Shown here: positions 323 through 10,754 of the stretch, in pieces | How positions within the stretch are numbered: the first letter of the stretch is position 1 | Layout of the letters: each line of letters opens with the position of its first letter | Virus genome (UHGV): UHGV-0300898 | Length of the DNA: 10,754 nucleotides | From: a virus | Direction: 5' to 3' (one strand) | Made by a program: the position numbers and the translations under genes | Notes under the pieces: generated by a model | Databases searched by the model: none | The model's input: only the letters and a program-made list of their open reading frames with translations | Told to the model about the DNA's origin: nothing

Positions 323-450
323 GGGTGACCCAAGCTAAATTTTAATGATGTTACATATCTTTAGTTTAAACTGTATTATTTCCATACGTACTCCTTTAAA
401 GCCAACTGACTGTCTCCCTTTAATAATATCTATCCAAAAAATAATAGAAA

Positions 451-498
451 GAAAAAAAAAATAAAAGGTCTAAGCCCCGAAGGGCTTAGACTCTTTTT
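451..498. terminator. bidirectional intrinsic terminator (10-bp perfect stem GTCTAAGCCC/GGGCTTAGAC, 4-nt loop) flanked by an A-run upstream and a T-run downstream
   Basis: Stem 468-477/482-491 with loop CGAA (UUCG in the minus-strand RNA). The A-tract at 451-467 becomes a U-tract on the minus strand, immediately after the stop of the 764-aa gene at 507. The T5 run at 493-497 serves the plus strand. Confidence 0.8.
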
Positions 499-506
499 AA
501 GCAAGA

Positions 507-2801
507 TTACTTACCAGCAGCAGCTTTGCCTTCGCCAGCAACGTTACCTGCTACACCACCTTCGGTTTGTTTCTGACCGTTCTGTTCAACAGAAACATTG
601 TAAGCCAGTTTTTCTTCAACCAGTTTGGTGATGCCTTTAACCCAGATCAGACCAGTGATCGGGCAGTGGCAGATGTGCGCGTTACGCGGCTGTACGGCCA
701 GCTCTTTAGAGGTAGAGCCGTTACGCTGAATGTTGATGTTAGTAACCATGATCGGAGACCAGAAGTGGTTACCCCAGTTCAGCACGTTGTAGGAACCATC
801 GTCCGCAGTCGGAACTTTCAGGAACCATTGCAGACGACGAGTCCAGGAACCGTCAGCTGCGTTGTAGATACGCCAGCGGTCATCGTTGGTGGTGATCACT
901 TCGTATTCGTAGCGATCGCCCAGCAGACGTTGGTCGCCCTGTACCAGCAGCAGCATGGATGCAGTCGGTTCGTCGGTTGCAATAACAACCTTCGGCAGAA
1001 TGTCCGGATCGGCAGTGTACAGACGCAGCGCAGGAATGAAGCGAGATTCCTGGATAGCCTGAGTTACCTGATTACCGATACGCTGTACCAGGCCCTGACG
1101 AGCGTTGATCAGTGCATCTTTGGTATCCAGGGACTGTACAACTTCATCAACGTTGTAGTCAGACTCTTTGAACCACGGAGCAACCCAGTGACGGCCCAGA
1201 CCACGAATGGCCGGTTTGTCCCACGGAGTGATCATGCTTGCAGCAGCGTTACGTACCGCTTCGGTGTAAGACAGCGTCTGAGTGATAGCCAGCTGTTCGT
1301 TACGGATGTTAACTGCGGAAATCAGGTCGTCCAGACGTTCGGTATCGTCGTATTCAACACCAACCGGAGACTTGGTCAGAATCGGAGAACCGTATTGCAG
1401 TTTGTAGTTTTCTTGTTCCCAGATTGGGTCAAGCAGCAGACCCTGGGTACGACGGTTTTCGTTGGTACGAGTACCATCGAAGCGCCAGCCCATCAGTTCG
1501 AGCTTCAGACCTTCCAGAACAACTTTGCCGGTACCAGATTTGGTATCAACCTTGTTACCGGTAGCGTCGTACAGACCTTCGATTTCCAGTTTGTGACCCG
1601 CGATGTCAACTTTACCACCAAACTGACCGGTAGTGAACAGAGACATGTTGATGGTGATCACATAACGCAGGGTGTAGGAGTTCTGTTCCAGTGTTTTCAG
1701 AGCCGGAATAGCTGCACCAGTCCAGTCGGTAGTTTTCGCGTTCAGAGAGAATGCGGTACGACGGAATTGCAGTACCAGCTCACGGCCATCGCCTTCAGCA
1801 GGACGCTGGAAGGTTGCGAACTGCATGTCACGAACGTGCAGTTTGATGAATTTACCTGCTTTCGCTTCTTCGGTCGGTTTACGTACAGAAATCAGCAGGC
1901 TGCCCAGAGCACAACCCGGTGCGATTTCATCAGTTTCGTCGTAACCTTCCTGAACGATACCCGGATGCGCAGACAGCTGGAACAGGTTCAGAGTGTCTTT
2001 AGCAAAGCTCAGGTAGTTAGTCGGGTACGGAGGTACACGGCCCAGACGAACAGATTCGTTCGGTACCAGATCTTCGCTTACGAAGTATTCAGCGTTTTCA
2101 CCGGTTTCCATTACGTAAGGAACGATGTTGATCGCTTCGTCCTGGAGAACGGTGTGGTCGGTCAGCGCGTTGTGCAGCGGACGACGATGATCTTCAACAA
2201 CGTCTTTGCTCAGCAGTGCGTTCATTACACCGCGAGAAACGGTGGTCACTTTGGTACGTACGGTAATACCAACATCGTTGGTGTCAACAGTGATGGTCGG
2301 GAACAGAGTCTCAGCGAAACGAGACTGGGTTTCCAGAGCACGTACGTTCAGCGTCCAGGTCAGACCCAGGTTTTTGTCGTAGTCTTTGTTGGTGTAGTAT
2401 TCCTGAGCGACAACCATACGCTCTTTGCCCCAGTCGCCGTTACCAGCTTGGGAACCAGGAATCGCAACGTCCAGGTTAAAACGGCTATGGAATTCTGGTT
2501 TAGCGTATTCTTGCGCTACTTTTTCTTGCAGGTCCATACCGTGACCAGCAGCACCCAGAATCATTGCAGAAGCAACTTCCGCAGCGTGGGACATTTTCTT
2601 ACCGCCAGCAAACGCGTTTGCGTAGTGCTGTGCAGCGTCGTCACGCAGGGTACCAAAAACTTTCGTGTTGCTACGTACAGATTCACCAGCAACGATGGTG
2701 TTCCACATTTCGCCAGCACTGTTGTTACTAATGACGCTTTGTACCAGCGAGTTACCAGCTTGTACGAGTTTCTCCAGATTAGAGATTCGGGTATCTTTCA
2801 T
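507..2801 (-). CDS. major virion structural protein, probably major capsid protein of a jumbo-type phage (764 aa); tail sheath is the alternative
   Basis: Longest ORF in the window. Codon usage is strongly biased toward high-expression codons (CGT, GGT, CTG, AAC, ACC, GAA), so strongly that the antisense strand carries an uninterrupted 752-aa artefactual ORF. SD TAAGGT lies 9 nt upstream of the ATG and a strong terminator follows the stop. Size matches the ~750-aa capsid proteins of phiKZ-like phages as I recall them. No homology search was possible. Confidence 0.85.
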   Translation of the reverse strand: MKDTRISNLEKLVQAGNSLVQSVISNNSAGEMWNTIVAGESVRSNTKVFGTLRDDAAQHYANAFAGGKKMSHAAEVASAMILGAAGHGMDLQEKVAQEYAKPEFHSRFNLDVAIPGSQAGNGDWGKERMVVAQEYYTNKDYDKNLGLTWTLNVRALETQSRFAETLFPTITVDTNDVGITVRTKVTTVSRGVMNALLSKDVVEDHRRPLHNALTDHTVLQDEAINIVPYVMETGENAEYFVSEDLVPNESVRLGRVPPYPTNYLSFAKDTLNLFQLSAHPGIVQEGYDETDEIAPGCALGSLLISVRKPTEEAKAGKFIKLHVRDMQFATFQRPAEGDGRELVLQFRRTAFSLNAKTTDWTGAAIPALKTLEQNSYTLRYVITINMSLFTTGQFGGKVDIAGHKLEIEGLYDATGNKVDTKSGTGKVVLEGLKLELMGWRFDGTRTNENRRTQGLLLDPIWEQENYKLQYGSPILTKSPVGVEYDDTERLDDLISAVNIRNEQLAITQTLSYTEAVRNAAASMITPWDKPAIRGLGRHWVAPWFKESDYNVDEVVQSLDTKDALINARQGLVQRIGNQVTQAIQESRFIPALRLYTADPDILPKVVIATDEPTASMLLLVQGDQRLLGDRYEYEVITTNDDRWRIYNAADGSWTRRLQWFLKVPTADDGSYNVLNWGNHFWSPIMVTNINIQRNGSTSKELAVQPRNAHICHCPITGLIWVKGITKLVEEKLAYNVSVEQNGQKQTEGGVAGNVAGEGKAAAGK

Positions 2802-2813
2802 TTGTTTAATACC

Positions 2814-3338
2814 TTAATGAGATAAATGACATGCGTATAATTGCGTCAGCACTTCGTTAGCGGCAAACTGCGTTGAGGTACTGAAGCAGTCATCCACGAC
2901 GCGAGTCTTGGTACGCATATATTTAAAAAGTTCTGCGCAGAACATCTTTTTCGCAGCGTGGTCTTCACCCGAAGAAAAACCCGAACCGGACTTTGCTTCT
3001 GCAAATGACGCCACAATCGTATCACCACGTTGAGTAAACACCCAACGTACGCGACAAGGAATTGTTTCCCCATATAAATCGTCAAGGGAAACCTTTTCGC
3101 CTGATTCGACCAGACGTAACACCTGATCATAATATTTACCTGGAAGCACAGGCGGAGCCATCAGTGCTTTATAAATAGCAGAACGACTTACTTCAGGTAA
3201 GATGATAGAACTGAAACCATTCGGACAGTCATATAACCAGTTAAAGAACCCTGCCTGGAGCAATTCTATACTTTTAACGGCAGCGCCTTTATCTATGTTA
3301 GGTTGAACTTCCCACGGTGGACTAAAACGAATTTGCAT
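2814..3338 (-). CDS. hypothetical protein (174 aa)
   Basis: Complete ORF in the track. SD GGAG lies 9 nt upstream of the ATG at 3338. Its stop TAA (2816..2814) overlaps the SD of the downstream 764-aa gene, giving a tightly packed co-directional pair. Confidence 0.7.
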   Translation of the reverse strand: MQIRFSPPWEVQPNIDKGAAVKSIELLQAGFFNWLYDCPNGFSSIILPEVSRSAIYKALMAPPVLPGKYYDQVLRLVESGEKVSLDDLYGETIPCRVRWVFTQRGDTIVASFAEAKSGSGFSSGEDHAAKKMFCAELFKYMRTKTRVVDDCFSTSTQFAANEVLTQLYACHLSH

Positions 3339-3351
3339 TTAAGGATGCTCC

Positions 3352-4914: not shown

Positions 4915-4918
4915 GTCT

Positions 4919-4936
4919 GGGGAGCTTCGGCTCCCC
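4919..4936 (+). terminator. stable hairpin GGGGAGC-UUCG-GCUCCCC directly after the 520-aa gene; no U-tract, so either a 3' stability element or a non-canonical terminator
   Basis: Perfect 7-bp GC stem with a UUCG tetraloop, 4 nt after the stop codon. Followed by CTATAACCCC rather than a T-run. Confidence 0.4.
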
Positions 4937-5019
4937 CTATAACCCCTTATGCGTCTCGAAAAACAAAAAAAAACAGAAGGCTATTAATTATGAACGGAAA
5001 ACAACTACCGAACTAAGTA

Positions 5020-5046
5020 GGGGGTGGTAGCAACACCCCCTTTATT
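5020..5046 (+). terminator. intrinsic terminator, GGGGGTG-loop-CACCCCC plus TTTATT (first member of a three-copy terminator family)
   Basis: 7-bp stem 5020-5026/5034-5040, 7-nt loop, then TTTATT at 5041-5046. Preceded by an 8-codon mini-ORF (4990..5016) that has an SD. Confidence 0.55.
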
Positions 5047-5159
5047 AGTTAGTAACTTATCTCCTTAGAGGTGGTTGCTGAACATTATGGTTGTTAACCG
5101 TTTTCATTACCTTTCGTAATGTTGTAAAAACGTCAACAACTTTATGTGTTGATGCCGTA

Positions 5160-5189
5160 CAGCAGAGACTGGCGGAACAGTCTCTGCTG
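5160..5189 (+). other. perfect 12-bp hairpin (CAGCAGAGACTG / CAGTCTCTGCTG, 6-nt loop) abutting repeat copy 1
   Basis: Exact reverse-complement arms at 5160-5171 and 5178-5189. The position-equivalent hairpin before copy 2 (5561-5586) has an unrelated sequence but the same architecture. Confidence 0.7.
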
Positions 5190-5232
5190 CTTTAACTTCT
5201 CTTTGGAAAAGTTAAAGCTATGAAAAGGGGTG
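5187..5232 (+). repeat. 46-nt conserved element, copy 1 (CTGCTTTAACTTCTCTTTGGAAAAGTTAAAGCTATGAAAAGGGGTG); contains a 9-bp inverted repeat CTTTAACTT-N10-AAGTTAAAG
   Basis: 45/46 identical to 5586..5631, the single mismatch being 5224 A versus 5623 T. The copies are offset by exactly 399 bp. The internal inverted repeat is 5190-5198/5209-5217. Confidence 0.85.
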
Positions 5233-5250
5233 GTGGTGCACCCCTTTTTA
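5227..5250 (+). terminator. intrinsic terminator GGGGTG-GTGGTG-CACCCC plus TTTTTA (family copy 2)
   Basis: 6-bp GC stem, 6-nt loop, then a T5 run at 5245-5249. It begins inside the conserved element. Confidence 0.55.
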
Positions 5251-5291
5251 TTATACTTACGACCACCATCTCGGCAGGTTACTGTACGAGG

Positions 5292-5326
5292 AGGAGAGGC
5301 GCTGACACGCCTCTCCTTTATTTGTT
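5292..5326 (+). terminator. intrinsic terminator, stem GGAGAGGCG/CGCCTCTCC with loop CTGACA, followed by TTTATTTGTT
   Basis: Perfect 9-bp stem 5293-5301/5308-5316, extendable with flanking A-T and G-U pairs, followed by a T-rich tract. Confidence 0.6.
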
Positions 5327-5498
5327 AGTAGTGTTCACTCCTCTTTTCAGTGAATATCCGCGTGAAACGGTTGGTAGACGGTTTTAACCGTTTATCCATG
5401 CCGAGCTGACTATACTTGTAGATACGTTGCTGTAAATTGGTCTTTGCTGCACTCTGCTCTGCAAGCATTTTGTCGGTAAAGTAGTAACCATTGTTCAT
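5325..5498 (-). CDS. small basic hypothetical protein, 57 aa (MNNGYYFTDKMLAEQSAAKTNLQQRIYKYSQLGMDKRLKPSTNRFTRIFTEKRSEHY)
   Basis: Below the 60-aa cutoff of the ORF track and found by hand translation. ATG at 5498..5496 is preceded by SD GAGGG with a 6-nt spacer; TAA stop at 5327..5325. It lies between the two copies of the 46-nt element. Confidence 0.35.
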   Translation of the reverse strand: MNNGYYFTDKMLAEQSAAKTNLQQRIYKYSQLGMDKRLKPSTNRFTRIFTEKRSEHY

Positions 5499-5531
5499 GG
5501 TAAGCCCTCTTTGTAGGGTGATTAAAGAAAT

Positions 5532-5551
5532 CCACTACGGAAACGTAGTGG
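5532..5551 (+). other. perfect 8-bp hairpin CCACTACG-GAAA-CGTAGTGG with a GNRA-type tetraloop
   Basis: Exact inverted repeat with a GAAA loop, about 35 nt upstream (minus sense) of the 57-aa ORF start. Confidence 0.6.
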
Positions 5552-5560
5552 TGTTGTAAA

Positions 5561-5586
5561 GGGTACGCTGTAGCACCAGCGTACCC
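5561..5586 (+). other. perfect 10-bp hairpin (GGGTACGCTG / CAGCGTACCC, loop TAGCAC) abutting repeat copy 2
   Basis: Same position relative to the conserved element as the 5160-5189 hairpin, with a completely different stem sequence. Confidence 0.7.
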
Positions 5587-5631
5587 TGCTTTAACTTCTC
5601 TTTGGAAAAGTTAAAGCTATGATAAGGGGTG
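5586..5631 (+). repeat. 46-nt conserved element, copy 2
   Basis: See copy 1; 45/46 identity at a 399-bp offset. Confidence 0.85.
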
Positions 5632-5656
5632 TGACAGCACCCCTTTATTTTATTTA
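5626..5656 (+). terminator. intrinsic terminator GGGGTG-TGACAG-CACCCC plus TTTATTTTATTT (family copy 3)
   Basis: Same stem as 5227-5244 with a different loop, followed by a long T-rich tract. Confidence 0.6.
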
Positions 5657-5749
5657 GTAGTTACTTCTCCTTTCGGTGAAGATTTGTACTCGTCGATTAT
5701 TAGAAGGTTTAAACCTTTTATTTAATCCAAGCTGTTGAATTTGCGAAAA

Positions 5750-5799
5750 TAAATAAAGTGTACCCCTAATCCTTTTCGGGATTAGGGGTTGCTTTTATT
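5750..5799. terminator. bidirectional intrinsic terminator (10-bp perfect stem CCCCTAATCC/GGATTAGGGG)
   Basis: Stem 5763-5772/5779-5788 with loop TTTTCG. A T-rich tract follows on the plus strand (5789-5799) and an A-rich tract precedes it (5750-5760), which is a U-tract on the minus strand. Sits directly after the stop of the 271-aa minus-strand gene. Confidence 0.75.
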
Positions 5800-6610
5800 T
5801 AGTCGCTACGTATTGAACATGGCCACATTCTTTACATTCCACGTTGGCTTTCGGGATTGTCAGGCCGGTTAAAGGAACACGGATTTGATACTGTGCTCCA
5901 CATTCTTCACAAACAAAATCGTATTCTGGATAGACACGACCTTCTAATTTCTCTTCTTTCCTTAGTGTGCCTGCTAAGAACAGCATCGCACCTAACGCTT
6001 CATTAATCTGCTGTTCCCATTCTCCGTCTAACGGGTAAGCGAACGCACGAGTCAACGTTTCCACCATCTCTGGAGTATTACTTACATAAACGTGTTTCAG
6101 TTCAAACTCAACACGTTGCAAGCCGAACAATACGCGCGCCGTCACGGTAACATTATCCAACGTTTGTGCAAACACAACGGGATTATCGTCACCATACATT
6201 GCGAATAACGCAGCACGTTCGTATTCGATATCACTCCACTCGATTAGTTCTACAGATTTAATCGCTTCCGCAATCTCAGCATTACCGAACGTTTCGTGTT
6301 CCAATAATCCGACGATAACTTCATTCAACGATTTCAATTGCTGTAATCGAATCGTAGGATCGGTATTCACGATAAGTAAACGATGCATTCTGGATTTCAA
6401 CCAGTTAATCGTTCCTTCTACACCGCCCCCAAACGAGCAGATGCTTATCACTTCAGGTTCACGAAGGATAAGAGTTGATTTTCCTGCTGCCGTACTCAAG
6501 TAGAGTTTAAAAGACTTATCGTTAGACTCTGCAACGATGGCAATGTCTTCAGTTGGAACGAAGTTTTCATTGCTCAGCCCACGCGGAAAATAATCTTTAA
6601 TAGTAATCAT
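5795..6610 (-). CDS. hypothetical protein with a C-terminal CxxC-N22-CxxC zinc-ribbon (271 aa)
   Basis: Complete ORF. SD GGAG is 8 nt upstream of the ATG at 6610. C-terminus reads ...VCEECGAQYQIRVPLTGLTIPKANVECKECGHVQY. Terminator immediately downstream. Confidence 0.75.
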   Translation of the reverse strand: MITIKDYFPRGLSNENFVPTEDIAIVAESNDKSFKLYLSTAAGKSTLILREPEVISICSFGGGVEGTINWLKSRMHRLLIVNTDPTIRLQQLKSLNEVIVGLLEHETFGNAEIAEAIKSVELIEWSDIEYERAALFAMYGDDNPVVFAQTLDNVTVTARVLFGLQRVEFELKHVYVSNTPEMVETLTRAFAYPLDGEWEQQINEALGAMLFLAGTLRKEEKLEGRVYPEYDFVCEECGAQYQIRVPLTGLTIPKANVECKECGHVQYVATK

Positions 6611-7876: not shown

Positions 7877-9196
7877 TTACGTAGCGGTTGTAAATTTTTC
7901 ATTAGTCAACCACAACGTCAATTGACTAATGGTATTAAATTGTGGGGACGCCATCGAACCGCCATCAACGGCAGCTTGGAAAACTTCACCAACCAACGTC
8001 CCATAACGAGTGTATACACCGTAATTATTCGCATACAGATATTTTACTGCCATACCCGGCTGCAATAAACCGTACGCTGAACGGTTCCAGGTCGTTGCGG
8101 TAAGTGTCCCTCTGGCGGCAGCCAACTTAGAACGACGGGGCTTATCTGTGTCGCTGAAGTGTTCGTTTGGATCAATAGGCGCATTAACAACACCACCAGG
8201 GTACTGTGTAGGGTCTGCTGCTGAAACAAACGAATCTGACGTCGTTGCTGAAACATCGCCTGGAGAGAAAGAACTTGCACGTCCATCTAAGGCACGGATT
8301 GAACCCACACGGTAACCTGTTCCCTGATTTAGCGCAAGGGCGTCTTTGTCTTCGAAGGTGTGAACATCACCACCACAAATCAGATAAATGACGTCACCTG
8401 CAATATGGCACGTTTTATCTAAATAGGCAACCTTCTCTCTTGGAAGGTTAATTACCACCAGTTTCTTTTTCGCCGTAGAGAATTTCTTAGAGTCCCACGG
8501 CTGAAAGATATGCCAACGGTGTTTATACAAGAAGACACCTAATCCTTGGCTATACACACCGTAACGGTTCTGAATGAAATCGAAAACCGAAAGAAAACTT
8601 TGCGAATCGGGAATCAAAATGTCACGATAAGGCTGTTGTTCTTCTTCCTCGTATTCCACACCAACCAACTGACCTTCTGGTGCATCCCCAGTAGGTAACG
8701 TATCAGCAAGCAATGCACGAACGACACTTAATCCGTCTGTTTCGTGGTAAATCCCTCCTACCTGCCGACAGCGAAGGAACCACATCGATTCGTCCATCAG
8801 TTCCAACGTCACCACACCCAACCCTTTTTGGTCAGACTCACCCAAGAACATTGTGGGCGATTCCATATCGGGATCGTGATTGTTAACCACGATTCCTCGG
8901 TAGTTCAGCTGAGCAATGGTTTTCTTGTTCATTGCCCGCATCAGGATTTTAACCGATAAATCCCCTTCTGCCGACGACGTAAGAATACGTTGCTGGCTCA
9001 GTGGAATTACCACACTGAGATGTGTGATAGTCGTTAAATCCTGAGCGAAATTACTGGCATGGATTATCGACATGGTTTTGTAAACGTCGATCGTCACACC
9101 ACGAACCGTAATAAGGGGTACGTAGTCGATGGCCGGTAATCCCGCCGCTTGTGCAATGTGCACGTTTGCTATGTTCTGTAACCGACCAAACGACAT
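7877..9196 (-). CDS. hypothetical protein (439 aa) with an acidic YEEEEQQ patch
   Basis: Complete ORF. SD GGAGG is 9 nt upstream. The start ATG overlaps the upstream gene's TAA as TAATG, indicating translational coupling. Confidence 0.8.
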   Translation of the reverse strand: MSFGRLQNIANVHIAQAAGLPAIDYVPLITVRGVTIDVYKTMSIIHASNFAQDLTTITHLSVVIPLSQQRILTSSAEGDLSVKILMRAMNKKTIAQLNYRGIVVNNHDPDMESPTMFLGESDQKGLGVVTLELMDESMWFLRCRQVGGIYHETDGLSVVRALLADTLPTGDAPEGQLVGVEYEEEEQQPYRDILIPDSQSFLSVFDFIQNRYGVYSQGLGVFLYKHRWHIFQPWDSKKFSTAKKKLVVINLPREKVAYLDKTCHIAGDVIYLICGGDVHTFEDKDALALNQGTGYRVGSIRALDGRASSFSPGDVSATTSDSFVSAADPTQYPGGVVNAPIDPNEHFSDTDKPRRSKLAAARGTLTATTWNRSAYGLLQPGMAVKYLYANNYGVYTRYGTLVGEVFQAAVDGGSMASPQFNTISQLTLWLTNEKFTTAT

Positions 9197-9708
9197 TACA
9201 GAATTCCTCCACGTCTACGGTATATCTGTTCAATACGGTGCATAATCGTATCGTTGAACTGATGCCGTTCTGTTTCCAATCGGACTTCGCCGAATAACGC
9301 TTGTACAGAAACCGCCATGGTTACTTCAGGTTTCTTAAAGTAACCGTAACGGTTCGCTACCGGGAACAGTTTACGCGCTAACGCATTAAACTGGCGTAAG
9401 CCCTCCATAGGGACTTTACGTGTTGTTAAGTGTGGGGTCTGCATGTAGTTTAGCCAATCGGCTAAGTGCTCCATGATATACCCGTACACGATAATCCCGT
9501 CATGTGGGTCGTGGACGTCTAATGCCGCACCCGTTTCTGCATAAACCGCAACTTCGAAAGGTCGCATGTATACGGTCTTTTTATTTAGCAGTATCGCGCG
9601 TGCTTTTTTCTCGTCTTCCGGTAAGAACAACCCATGTTCCTGAGACATATACGTTGAGATCGTCGTCCATTCAGGAACACGCCATCCTACCCACTTGTGA
9701 AACAGCAT
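9196..9708 (-). CDS. hypothetical protein (about 170 aa, starting MLFHKWVGWRV...)
   Basis: The track ORF 9196..9837 overlaps the upstream gene by 100 nt in another frame, so the true start must be internal. Candidates are ATG 9708 (28-nt gap after the upstream stop) or ATG 9750 (13-nt overlap). Neither has a clear SD; the start is uncertain. Confidence 0.55.
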   Translation of the reverse strand: MLFHKWVGWRVPEWTTISTYMSQEHGLFLPEDEKKARAILLNKKTVYMRPFEVAVYAETGAALDVHDPHDGIIVYGYIMEHLADWLNYMQTPHLTTRKVPMEGLRQFNALARKLFPVANRYGYFKKPEVTMAVSVQALFGEVRLETERHQFNDTIMHRIEQIYRRRGGIL

Positions 9709-9736
9709 AAATGCTGCGCTACGTTTTTCAGCCACG

Positions 9737-10750
9737 TTAATCCCTCGCATAGCGTAACAACAAATACACCATCGGGATGTAATAGAATTGCGCATCCTTC
9801 GGCAAACGGTAAACTTCTTCAAACAACCGCAACGCAATTACTGTCGACAGTGGGCGCTTATTCAGATAGAGATATAAACCGTATTCTAATAACGAACTGT
9901 ACGAGCCCTCGTAAAACGATGGGCTTAACAAATACGGCTTGTAGGTCAGCGGTAAAAACGCAGGGATCGATTCGCCTTCGTTACCCCGATAGTTCTCCAC
10001 TTCAACCGGTTCAAACTCCGTCCACTTCGGCCACTGTCCAGGAAAACGTTGTGCCATCCCATAACCTGGTTTTAATTCATCGGTAAAGAATCGGGTATCC
10101 GAAATTAATGACCAGGTCACAGAATTCCGATGCTGCATCGTGCGGAAGGTTTTTACCTGCCAGACACTGGAATCACGTTTGTAATCCGCTAAGAACGTTG
10201 GCGATTGATTTAACAATGCTGTCCAGACCGTTTCAATATCTTCCACACGCATTGGTGGGTGCGGGTAGATTTGAATATCTTTACCGACGGTCCGTAAGCC
10301 TACAGAGCGTACAAACTGTGCCAAGAACACATCGTAATACGCGCGACTACGCAACCCATCACTATGTCGATCGTGGGGGAAAAGCAACGTTGCCGTTTCC
10401 CCATCGTAAAACCGTTTTACGTAAGTCTGTTCAATATCCGCAATCGCATCAACAATTTTCAAAAACGCACGGTATTCTTTCGGTGTCAGTAACGTATCAC
10501 CGCCCGTCCAGGCACGTTCAGAAACGTAATAATACTCACGAACCGTACAACGACGAATGGTTTCTGCAACGCCCGGATCAACTTCAAACAGCAACGTATA
10601 CTCGATGTTATACGTTGCAATTTTGTTATTAGACATCCGCACGACGTTAGTGACGTTGAACAACGCAAACCGTCCGTCTCCGATCGGGGCAACGAAAAAA
10701 CACCCTTCATTGGGAATCACCGAGTTCGCCATTGTTGCGGCACCGGACAT
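9737..10750 (-). CDS. hypothetical protein (at least 337 aa); the N-terminus may extend beyond the window end
   Basis: Long open frame. The first ATG is only 4 nt from the window edge, so neither an RBS nor an upstream extension can be assessed. First gene of the co-directional operon in this window. Confidence 0.7.
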   Translation of the reverse strand: MSGAATMANSVIPNEGCFFVAPIGDGRFALFNVTNVVRMSNNKIATYNIEYTLLFEVDPGVAETIRRCTVREYYYVSERAWTGGDTLLTPKEYRAFLKIVDAIADIEQTYVKRFYDGETATLLFPHDRHSDGLRSRAYYDVFLAQFVRSVGLRTVGKDIQIYPHPPMRVEDIETVWTALLNQSPTFLADYKRDSSVWQVKTFRTMQHRNSVTWSLISDTRFFTDELKPGYGMAQRFPGQWPKWTEFEPVEVENYRGNEGESIPAFLPLTYKPYLLSPSFYEGSYSSLLEYGLYLYLNKRPLSTVIALRLFEEVYRLPKDAQFYYIPMVYLLLRYARD

Positions 10751-10754
10751 GGTG

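What the first reader, a model, noticed from the sequence alone, without database searches (positions are those of the whole stretch)
507..2825. 764-aa highly expressed structural gene: a jumbo-phage-sized capsid protein
The 764-aa product is much larger than typical tailed-phage capsid proteins (roughly 300-520 aa) and matches the ~750-aa capsid proteins of phiKZ-like giant phages as I recall them. Codon usage is extremely biased and the gene is GC-richer than its neighbours, consistent with the most abundant virion protein. The N-terminal ~130 residues contain several small-residue-X-Glu motifs (AGE, AQE), which is the pattern I recall being cleaved by prohead proteases in these phages, so the N-terminus may be removed as a propeptide. 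I cannot rule out tail sheath.
Basis: inference. Interest (0 to 1): 0.5.

Follow-up and report, generated by a model that had tools for sequence, protein, structure and literature searches.

The report
Jumbo-phage major capsid protein gene

Summary
The 764-aa ORF is real. It lies on the minus strand at 507..2801, not 507..2825; position 2825 is the end of an antisense shadow ORF.

It is the major capsid protein (MCP) of a Chimalliviridae-type jumbo phage:
- Pfam PhiKZ_MCP, E = 2.9e-208.
- PHROG major head protein, E = 4.5e-279.
- 79-81% identity to the MCPs of Erwinia phage Asesino and Salmonella phage SPN3US (gp75), with the same gene order.
- No similarity to tail sheath.

Codon bias is extreme and tuned to the host: Nc 32 against 45-54 for neighbours, E. 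coli CAI 0.74 against 0.25-0.32, and GC 51.5% against 43-47%.

The cleavage site mapped by mass spectrometry in SPN3US (ATE-130|YYTNK) aligns with AQE-134|YYTNK here. [A/G]-x-E|Y is kept in 37 of 37 homologues. Cleavage there would give a 70.4-kDa mature protein and a 14.3-kDa, mostly helical propeptide.

Close relatives sit on roughly 222-kb "plasmids" or contigs of E. coli, Shigella, Salmonella and Enterobacter isolates, labelled "hypothetical protein". That fits the recently described persistent "Bapsvirus" lineage.

Verdict: correct interpretation, low novelty.

The parts
507..2801 (-). Major capsid protein precursor CDS, 764 aa, 84.7 kDa (stop codon 507-509)
   Evidence: ORF list. Pfam PhiKZ_MCP E = 2.9e-208. 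PHROG 3231. PDB sequence hits to solved jumbo-phage MCPs. 79-81% identity to SPN3US gp75 and Asesino gp91.
2400..2801 (-). Predicted N-terminal propeptide, residues 1-134, 14.3 kDa. Helices predicted at 4-94, then a low-confidence linker at 95-136.
   Evidence: Aligns with the 130-residue SPN3US gp75 propeptide removed by gp245 (PMC5694885). Secondary structure comes from the AF2 model. Less conserved than the mature part, 39% against 68% mean identity.
2397..2408 (-). Predicted maturation cleavage site A132-Q133-E134 | Y135
   Evidence: E134 and Y135 are invariant, and [A/G]-x-E is kept in 37 of 37 homologues. It is the positional equivalent of SPN3US ATE-130|YYTNK, mapped by mass spectrometry (PMC10052503 Table 2; PMC7411985 Table 4).
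510..2399 (-). Predicted mature capsid protein, residues 135-764, 70.4 kDa, HK97 fold. Residues 735-764 form a variable Gly/Ala-rich tail.
2811..2816 (-). Shine-Dalgarno-like TAAGGT, 10 nt upstream of the ATG, overlapping the stop codon of the upstream gene
   Evidence: Read directly from the sequence. The same TAAGGT is conserved in SPN3US, Asesino and the E. coli p98232 element.
450..497 (-). Intrinsic-terminator-like hairpin (UUCG loop) with a T-run, starting 10 nt after the stop codon
   Evidence: Terminator scan. Folding energy -22.1 kcal/mol, z = -4.8, matched by 0 of 200 shuffles. SPN3US and Asesino have a hairpin with the same loop but a different, fully compensated stem.
567..2825 (+). 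752-aa antisense shadow ORF. Not a gene; a by-product of codon bias.
   Evidence: It lies in the codon-aligned antisense frame and is open because the MCP gene has no TTA, CTA or TCA codons. About 33 would be expected at the neighbours' frequency (P = 1e-15). It is interrupted in Machina, Phobos and the closest relative, E. coli p98232.
2814..3338 (-). Conserved 174-aa protein of unknown function immediately upstream, possibly co-transcribed (12-nt gap)
   Evidence: phrog_8266 E = 9e-96. Same position in SPN3US, Asesino and E. coli p98232.

Best explanation
The minus-strand gene at 507..2801 encodes the major capsid protein of an SPN3US/Asesino-like (Chimalliviridae, phiKZ-related) jumbo phage with a genome of about 222 kb that infects Enterobacteriaceae.

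Shown here:
- It belongs to the PhiKZ_MCP family.
- It has the HK97 capsid fold.
- It is syntenic with SPN3US gp75.
- It uses almost only the codons preferred in highly expressed enterobacterial genes.
- It is followed by a strong terminator hairpin.

Inferred by homology to SPN3US and phiKZ:
- The 84.7-kDa precursor co-assembles into a large prohead, about T = 27 with roughly 1,560-1,615 copies.
- The phage's S80-family prohead serine protease (the gp245 homologue) then cuts after Glu134 (AQE|YYTNK).
- It probably also cuts at the conserved AGE-40 and AQE-98, so that the helical 14.3-kDa propeptide is broken into small pieces that leave the shell.
- The 70.4-kDa mature protein then forms the expanded, DNA-filled capsid.

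The extreme codon adaptation and raised GC reflect selection for very high translation output late in infection, not recent horizontal acquisition. The same bias is present in the orthologues of SPN3US, Asesino, Machina and Phobos.
For: Family membership: Pfam PF25620 693.5 bits, covering profile positions 2-634 of 635. PHROG 3231 covers residues 1-754.

Solved relatives: phmmer E = 5e-51 (11bt/36za MCP), 4e-34 (8bfl, phi-Kp24) and 5e-32 (8y6v, phiKZ gp120).

Orthology and synteny: 80.8% identity to Asesino gp91 and about 79% to SPN3US-like MCPs. The order MCP, 174-aa protein, divergent DnaB-like helicase, virion proteins is the same in SPN3US, Asesino and the E. coli 222-kb element. The identical protein is on a 222,636-bp scaffold.

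Cleavage: SPN3US ATE-130 aligns with AQE-134. E134 and Y135 are invariant and [A/G]-x-E is kept in 37 of 37 homologues. The SPN3US site is cut in wild type and intact in gp245 amber mutants (PMC7411985 Table 4). An S80 protease 80.9% identical to SPN3US gp245 is encoded in the related E. ludwigii 222-kb record.

Expression: Nc 32.3, CAI 0.738, GC 51.5%. Terminator.
Against: Nothing contradicts the capsid assignment. The caveats are these:
- Cleavage, copy number and T number are inferred from SPN3US and were not observed for this phage.
- The protease gene is outside the window. It was found only in a relative whose MCP gene is about 90% identical in nucleotide sequence.
- No promoter was identified. 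These phages use their own RNA polymerases, so the sigma-70 scan is uninformative.
Confidence: 0.95

Rival explanations
1. It is the contractile tail sheath protein, which the first reader could not rule out.
For: Only the size. The SPN3US sheath is 681 aa, and sheath proteins are also abundant.
Confidence: 0.003
2. The real gene is the 752-aa plus-strand ORF (567..2825), or both strands are coding.
For: A 752-aa stop-free frame is very unlikely in random sequence. It is also open in SPN3US and Asesino.
Against: The frame is the exact codon-aligned antisense of the MCP gene, so it is open whenever TTA, CTA and TCA codons are avoided. The MCP gene has none of these, against about 33 expected. 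Stop codons break the frame in Machina, Phobos and the closest relative, E. coli p98232. All homology lies on the minus-strand translation.
Confidence: 0.01
3. It is a capsid-like gene of a large plasmid or a domesticated element, not of a virion-forming phage, because the closest DNA matches are records deposited as plasmids of E. coli and Enterobacter.
For: NZ_CP173450.1 (circular, 221,873 bp, 'plasmid') and NZ_CP134650.1 (222,441 bp) carry the gene at 90% nucleotide identity. Cluster members occur in many isolate assemblies.
Against: The element is collinear with lytic jumbo phages across the whole window and beyond, including head-tail joining and virion proteins. It keeps the prohead protease. 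Strong purifying selection and extreme expression-type codon bias argue for an actively used structural gene. Two studies interpret such contigs as persistent or carrier-state lytic jumbo phages (PMC12768965; bioRxiv 10.1101/2024.12.31.630880).
Confidence: 0.03
4. It is the major capsid protein, but maturation differs from SPN3US: either there is no cleavage, or the mature N-terminus lies elsewhere (for example after AQE-98 or GKE-127).
For: Cleavage has not been observed in this phage. The window protein has a 3-residue insertion just before the site and Gln instead of Thr at P2. AQE-98 is also well conserved, in 34 of 37 homologues.
Against: The P1 Glu and P1' Tyr are invariant in 37 of 37 sequences, and P3 is always Ala or Gly. 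AQE is itself a confirmed gp245 site in other SPN3US proteins: gp53 AQE-125, gp54 AQE-124 and gp245 AQE-203 (PMC10052503 Table 2). The predicted mature mass, 70.4 kDa, equals that of SPN3US gp75. The site lies in a low-confidence linker between the helical N-domain and the capsid fold, which would plausibly be accessible.
Confidence: 0.08

Closest known systems
Salmonella phage SPN3US gp75 (major capsid protein; RefSeq YP_009153369.1), genus Seoulvirus
   Same: About 78-79% amino-acid identity over the full length. Same neighbours (174-aa protein, divergent DnaB-like helicase). Same propeptide length class (130 against 134 residues) and the same YYTNKD mature N-terminus. Same predicted mature mass of 70.4 kDa. 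Same extreme codon bias (CAI 0.72, no TTA/CTA/TCA codons) and the same type of UUCG-loop terminator.
   Different: P2 of the cleavage site is Gln instead of Thr. There is a 3-residue insertion before the site. The propeptide (39% family-wide identity) and the Gly/Ala-rich C-terminal tail have diverged. The host genome is about 222 kb against 240 kb.
Erwinia phage vB_EamM_Asesino gp91 (putative major capsid protein), genus Erskinevirus
   Same: Best match in the phage collection at 80.8% identity, with the same synteny and ARE|YYTNKD at the cleavage position.
   Different: Different host genus. 769 aa with a longer Gly/Thr-rich tail.
Pseudomonas phage phiKZ gp120 (PDB 8y6v) and Klebsiella phage phi-Kp24 MCP (PDB 8bfl)
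   Different: Only about 20-24% identity. The propeptide sequences cannot be aligned.
T4 gp23 and HK97 gp5 (classical HK97-fold capsid proteins with N-terminal propeptide or delta domain)
   Different: The mature protein is roughly 1.2 to 2 times larger than these, the propeptide is about twice the length of T4's 65 residues (PMC5694885), and there is no detectable sequence similarity.

Membership tests
PhiKZ-type major capsid protein (Pfam PF25620 / PHROG 3231) | Full-length sequence match to the family profile above the curated threshold | tested here: met
   693.5 bits against a cut-off of 27, covering profile positions 2-634 of 635. PHROG 3231 E = 4.5e-279 over residues 1-754.
PhiKZ-type major capsid protein (Pfam PF25620 / PHROG 3231) | HK97 capsid fold, not a sheath or other fold | tested here: met
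PhiKZ-type major capsid protein (Pfam PF25620 / PHROG 3231) | Encoded once per genome in a jumbo (>200 kb) myovirus genome, in the conserved position | tested here: met
   The identical protein is on a 222,636-bp scaffold. One place per record in 212 phage genomes. Synteny with SPN3US, Asesino and E. coli p98232.
PhiKZ-type major capsid protein (Pfam PF25620 / PHROG 3231) | Long N-terminal propeptide ending in small-x-Glu at the position cleaved in characterised members | tested here: met
   AQE-134 aligns with SPN3US ATE-130. [A/G]-x-E|Y is kept in 37 of 37 homologues. This tests the sequence motif only.
PhiKZ-type major capsid protein (Pfam PF25620 / PHROG 3231) | Actual proteolytic removal of the propeptide by the cognate prohead protease | not testable with these tools
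   Needs virion mass spectrometry or an in-vitro protease assay. Indirect support: an S80 protease 80.9% identical to SPN3US gp245 is present in the related 222-kb E. ludwigii record.
PhiKZ-type major capsid protein (Pfam PF25620 / PHROG 3231) | Most abundant protein of the virion, forming the icosahedral shell | not testable with these tools
   Only indirect evidence: host-optimal codon usage (CAI 0.738, Nc 32.3), and homology to SPN3US gp75, the most abundant virion protein (PMC5694885).
Contractile tail sheath (considered as a rival) | Sequence or fold similarity to sheath proteins | tested here: not met
   No sheath family in Pfam or PHROGs. BLASTP against the SPN3US sheath is not significant. 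No sheath among the structural hits.
Proposed genus 'Bapsvirus' (Chimalliviridae) of assembly-associated jumbo phages (PMC12768965) | Genome of about 220-249 kb found in Salmonella, E. coli and Shigella assemblies, syntenic with but well diverged from Seoulvirus | tested here: inconclusive
   Scaffold and contig sizes of 221-227 kb, the host list and the synteny all fit. The best phage-record match is about 80% identical over 40% of the window. The accessions CP173450 and CP134650 were not found in the supplementary files held for that paper, so membership is inferred, not shown.

The most novel reading that the evidence does not exclude
The 134-residue propeptide may act as a built-in, delta-domain-like assembly module. 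This would be the helical bundle at residues 4-94 plus a flexible linker. It would be cut at three conserved sites (AGE-40, AQE-98, AQE-134) into fragments of about 4-6 kDa that can leave through pores in the shell.

If so, the capsid protein of this uncultured, host-persistent jumbo-phage lineage would carry part of its own scaffolding function. That would be in addition to, or instead of, the separate scaffold candidate (gp22) proposed for SPN3US.
Probability: 0.3. Interest if true: 0.3.

Novelty: new member of a known kind. Interest (0 to 1): 0.15.

Why it matters
There is little new biology in the gene itself. It is a clear orthologue of an experimentally characterised capsid protein, in a family that already has a Pfam model and solved structures.

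Its practical value is in annotation. The same protein cluster has 378 member sequences and is labelled "hypothetical protein" in E. coli, Shigella, Salmonella and Enterobacter genome records. The roughly 222-kb elements that carry it are filed as plasmids. Recognising the capsid gene, with its predicted 70.4-kDa mature form starting at YYTNKDYDK, marks these records as genomes of a persistent jumbo phage. It also gives a concrete proteomic marker for finding virions in carrier isolates.

Tried and rejected
- The sigma-70 promoter scan around the gene found 2 sites against 3.5 expected, none placed to drive the MCP gene. It is uninformative because phiKZ-like phages transcribe with their own RNA polymerases (established knowledge), so no promoter is claimed.
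- The tRNA and Rfam scans of the window were empty.
- I considered recent horizontal acquisition as the cause of the higher GC and rejected it. Orthologues in SPN3US, Asesino, Machina and Phobos show the same GC excess and codon bias relative to their neighbours.
- I considered the antisense ORF as a gene and rejected it.
- I looked for the two plasmid accessions and the word 'Bapsvirus' in the supplementary files of PMC12768965 and found nothing, so the genus assignment stays an inference.
- Biopython's built-in E. coli codon index was not available. Nc and the raw codon counts do not depend on them.
- I looked for the phiKZ gp120 cleavage position in the searchable literature, but the papers held gave only the S/A-x-E motif. 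No residue number is claimed for phiKZ.
Full report
**1. Observation**

The window has a 764-aa ORF, but it is on the minus strand at 507..2801. It overruns the true start codon by 24 nt into the upstream gene (2814..3338, minus).

The N-terminus MKDTRISNLEKLV matches the annotated starts of the SPN3US and Asesino orthologues. A conserved TAAGGT lies 10 nt upstream, so the ATG at 2801 is the start.

The compositional claims hold:
- GC is 51.5% against 42.8-46.7% for the other seven ORFs.
- Nc is 32.3 against 45.4-54.0.
- The preferred codons are exactly those of highly expressed enterobacterial genes. They are CTG 94% of Leu, CGT 85% of Arg, CCG 75% of Pro, ACC/ACT 94% of Thr, AAC 93% of Asn, TAC 96% of Tyr and ATC 68% of Ile.
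- CAI is 0.738 against 0.245-0.321 for the neighbours.

The N-terminal motifs also exist: AGE-31, AGE-40, AAE-75, AQE-98, GKE-127 and AQE-134. A-x-E occurs five times in the first 134 residues and twice in the remaining 630 (shuffle P = 0.001-0.003).

**2. What it is**

Sequence evidence:
- Pfam gives one hit, PF25620 "Bacteriophage PhiKZ major capsid protein gp120", at E = 2.9e-208 and covering the whole profile.
- PHROGs gives phrog_3231 "major head protein" at E = 4.5e-279.
- Against PDB sequences, the protein matches four solved jumbo-phage capsid proteins. These include phi-Kp24 (8bfl, E = 4e-34) and phiKZ gp120 (8y6v, 747 aa, E = 5e-32).
- tblastn against 50,697 phage records finds one copy in each of 212 genomes. 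The best matches are Erwinia phage Asesino (80.8%) and the SPN3US group (about 79%).

Gene order supports orthology. The order MCP, 174-aa conserved hypothetical, divergent DnaB-like helicase, small ORFs, virion proteins is the same in SPN3US, Asesino and a 222-kb E. coli element.

Structure prediction:
- An AlphaFold2 model was built from 37 homologues, with mean pLDDT 62.8.
- Foldseek finds only jumbo-phage capsids at significant E-values.
- No sheath protein appears, and BLASTP against the SPN3US sheath is not significant.

The sheath alternative is therefore excluded.

**3. How it most likely works**

For SPN3US gp75 the published data are:
- It is the most abundant virion protein, with about 1,560-1,615 copies in a T = 27 shell.
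- It is made as an 83.9-kDa precursor and trimmed to 70.4 kDa by removal of 130 residues after ATE-130 by prohead protease gp245.
- Peptides spanning TPLVATE-YYTNK are present only in gp245 amber mutants.

The sources are PMC5694885, PMC10052503 Table 2 and PMC7411985 Table 4.

In the alignment, ATE-130 corresponds to AQE-134 in the window protein (VVAQE|YYTNKDYDK). Across 37 homologues, down to 34% identity, Glu134 and Tyr135 are invariant and position 132 is always Ala or Gly. AQE is itself a verified gp245 site in other SPN3US proteins (PMC10052503 Table 2).

Cleavage at this site predicts a 70.4-kDa mature protein and a 14.3-kDa propeptide. The model places helices at residues 4-94. The cleavage site falls in a low-confidence linker (95-136) ahead of the capsid fold.

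Two other motifs are conserved: 38-40 in 29 of 37 homologues and 96-98 in 34 of 37. They are candidate secondary cuts. The motifs at 29-31, 73-75 and 125-127 are not conserved and are probably incidental.

A protease 80.9% identical to gp245 is encoded on the related 222-kb E. ludwigii record, where it is annotated "S80 family phage morphogenetic serine protease".

Membership, fold, site conservation and the expression signals are shown here. Assembly, cleavage and copy number are inferred from SPN3US.

**4. Expression signals**

Codon adaptation follows protein copy number in SPN3US: MCP 0.72, sheath 0.46, protease 0.42, terminase 0.30.

The bias and the GC excess are shared by all orthologues examined. 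They are therefore an old, selected property and not a sign of recent transfer.

Ten nucleotides after the stop codon there is a 15-bp hairpin with a UUCG loop and a T-run. Its folding energy is -22.1 kcal/mol (z = -4.8). SPN3US and Asesino have a hairpin with the same loop and a different but fully complementary stem. That pattern is what a functional terminator would show.

No promoter can be assigned with the tools available.

**5. The antisense ORF**

The 752-aa plus-strand ORF is in the codon-aligned antisense frame. It is open only because the MCP gene contains no TTA, CTA or TCA codons. About 33 would be expected at the neighbours' frequencies (P about 1e-15).

The frame is interrupted in Machina, Phobos and the closest relative, E. 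coli p98232. It is a side effect of codon bias and not a gene.

**6. Provenance and comparison with what is known**

- The identical protein is on a 222,636-bp metagenome scaffold. The window is about 99% identical to that scaffold but is not the same sequence.
- The protein's 90%-identity cluster has 378 members.
- The named members read are on contigs of up to 227 kb from Shigella flexneri, several Salmonella serovars and Enterobacter ludwigii. All are called "hypothetical protein".
- Two complete genomes carry roughly 222-kb "plasmids" with the gene at 90% nucleotide identity.
- No phage record is closer than about 80%.

This fits the proposed genus "Bapsvirus". That genus is described as having genomes of about 220-249 kb in Salmonella, E. 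coli and Shigella assemblies, syntenic with Seoulvirus and placed in Chimalliviridae (PMC12768965). It also fits the "persistent virulent phages" reported independently (bioRxiv 10.1101/2024.12.31.630880). I could not confirm membership by accession.

**7. Verdict**

It needs corrections for strand, for coordinates, and for which motifs matter.

The gene is a new, unannotated member of a well-characterised family, so novelty and interest are low. The remaining open points are experimental: the actual mature N-terminus, the secondary cleavage sites, and whether the propeptide has a scaffolding role.

Noticed in passing
window 567..2825 (+): A 752-aa antisense ORF in the codon-aligned frame of the capsid gene. 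It is open because the gene has no TTA, CTA or TCA codons. The same full-length shadow ORF exists in SPN3US and Asesino but is broken in Machina, Phobos and the E. coli p98232 relative.
   Followed up: yes
whole window; L005 (ENA ERZ28649287 scaffold_7, 222,636 bp); L006 (NZ_CP173450.1); NZ_CP134650.1: This jumbo-phage lineage is repeatedly sequenced inside bacterial isolate assemblies (Shigella, Salmonella, E. coli, Enterobacter) as contigs of about 221-227 kb, or as circular 'plasmids', with nearly every gene labelled hypothetical. It matches the published description of persistent jumbo phages and the proposed genus 'Bapsvirus', but I could not confirm the accessions.
   Followed up: partly
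window 450..497 (-); L001, L002, L006 downstream of their MCP genes: The terminator hairpin after the capsid gene keeps a C(UUCG)G tetraloop across genera, while the stem sequence is completely different yet still perfectly paired (GTCTAAGCCC/GGGCTTAGAC here, GCTTACTCCC/GGGAGTAAGC in SPN3US and Asesino). This is covariation that supports function.
   Followed up: partly
window 3339..3351: Only 13 nt separate the divergent start codons of the 174-aa gene (minus) and the DnaB-like helicase (plus), and the spacing is 14 nt in SPN3US. Any promoters for these genes must therefore lie inside the neighbouring coding sequences.
   Followed up: no
window 4915..5794: An 880-bp stretch has no ORF of 60 aa or more. 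It holds a 57-aa ORF (5325..5498, minus) and a 105-nt direct repeat (5150-5254 and 5549-5653, 75% identical). Each repeat copy contains two hairpins (GCTTTAACTT...AAGTTAAAGC and AAAGGGGTG...CACCCCTTT). The near-identical scaffold L005 has 113 extra bases at about window position 5103, overlapping a 53-aa gene called there.
   Followed up: partly
window 9196..9837 (-): The listed 213-aa ORF (TTG start) overlaps the upstream gene by 100 nt. The PHROG match begins at residue 35, and the gene called on L005 is 179 aa, so the real start is probably the GTG at 9735.
   Followed up: partly
window 9737..10754 (-): The 337-aa ORF is cut off at its 5' end by the edge of the window. On L005 the gene is 456 aa and carries both head-tail joining domains (PF24214 and PF24215). 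The Pfam match in the window starts at profile position 83 of 170.
   Followed up: partly
window 507..599 (-), residues 735-764: The capsid protein ends in a Gly/Ala-rich tail that differs in length and sequence in every relative (27% mean identity). Here it contains a further AGE motif (755-757), which reads AGD in the E. coli p98232 orthologue, so it is unlikely to be a conserved cleavage site.
   Followed up: partly
window 5795..6610 (-): The 271-aa protein is poorly conserved (phrog_10180, E = 4e-7). It has a C-terminal CxxC...CxxC zinc-ribbon-like motif that gives only sub-threshold Pfam hits. Its function is unknown.
   Followed up: no
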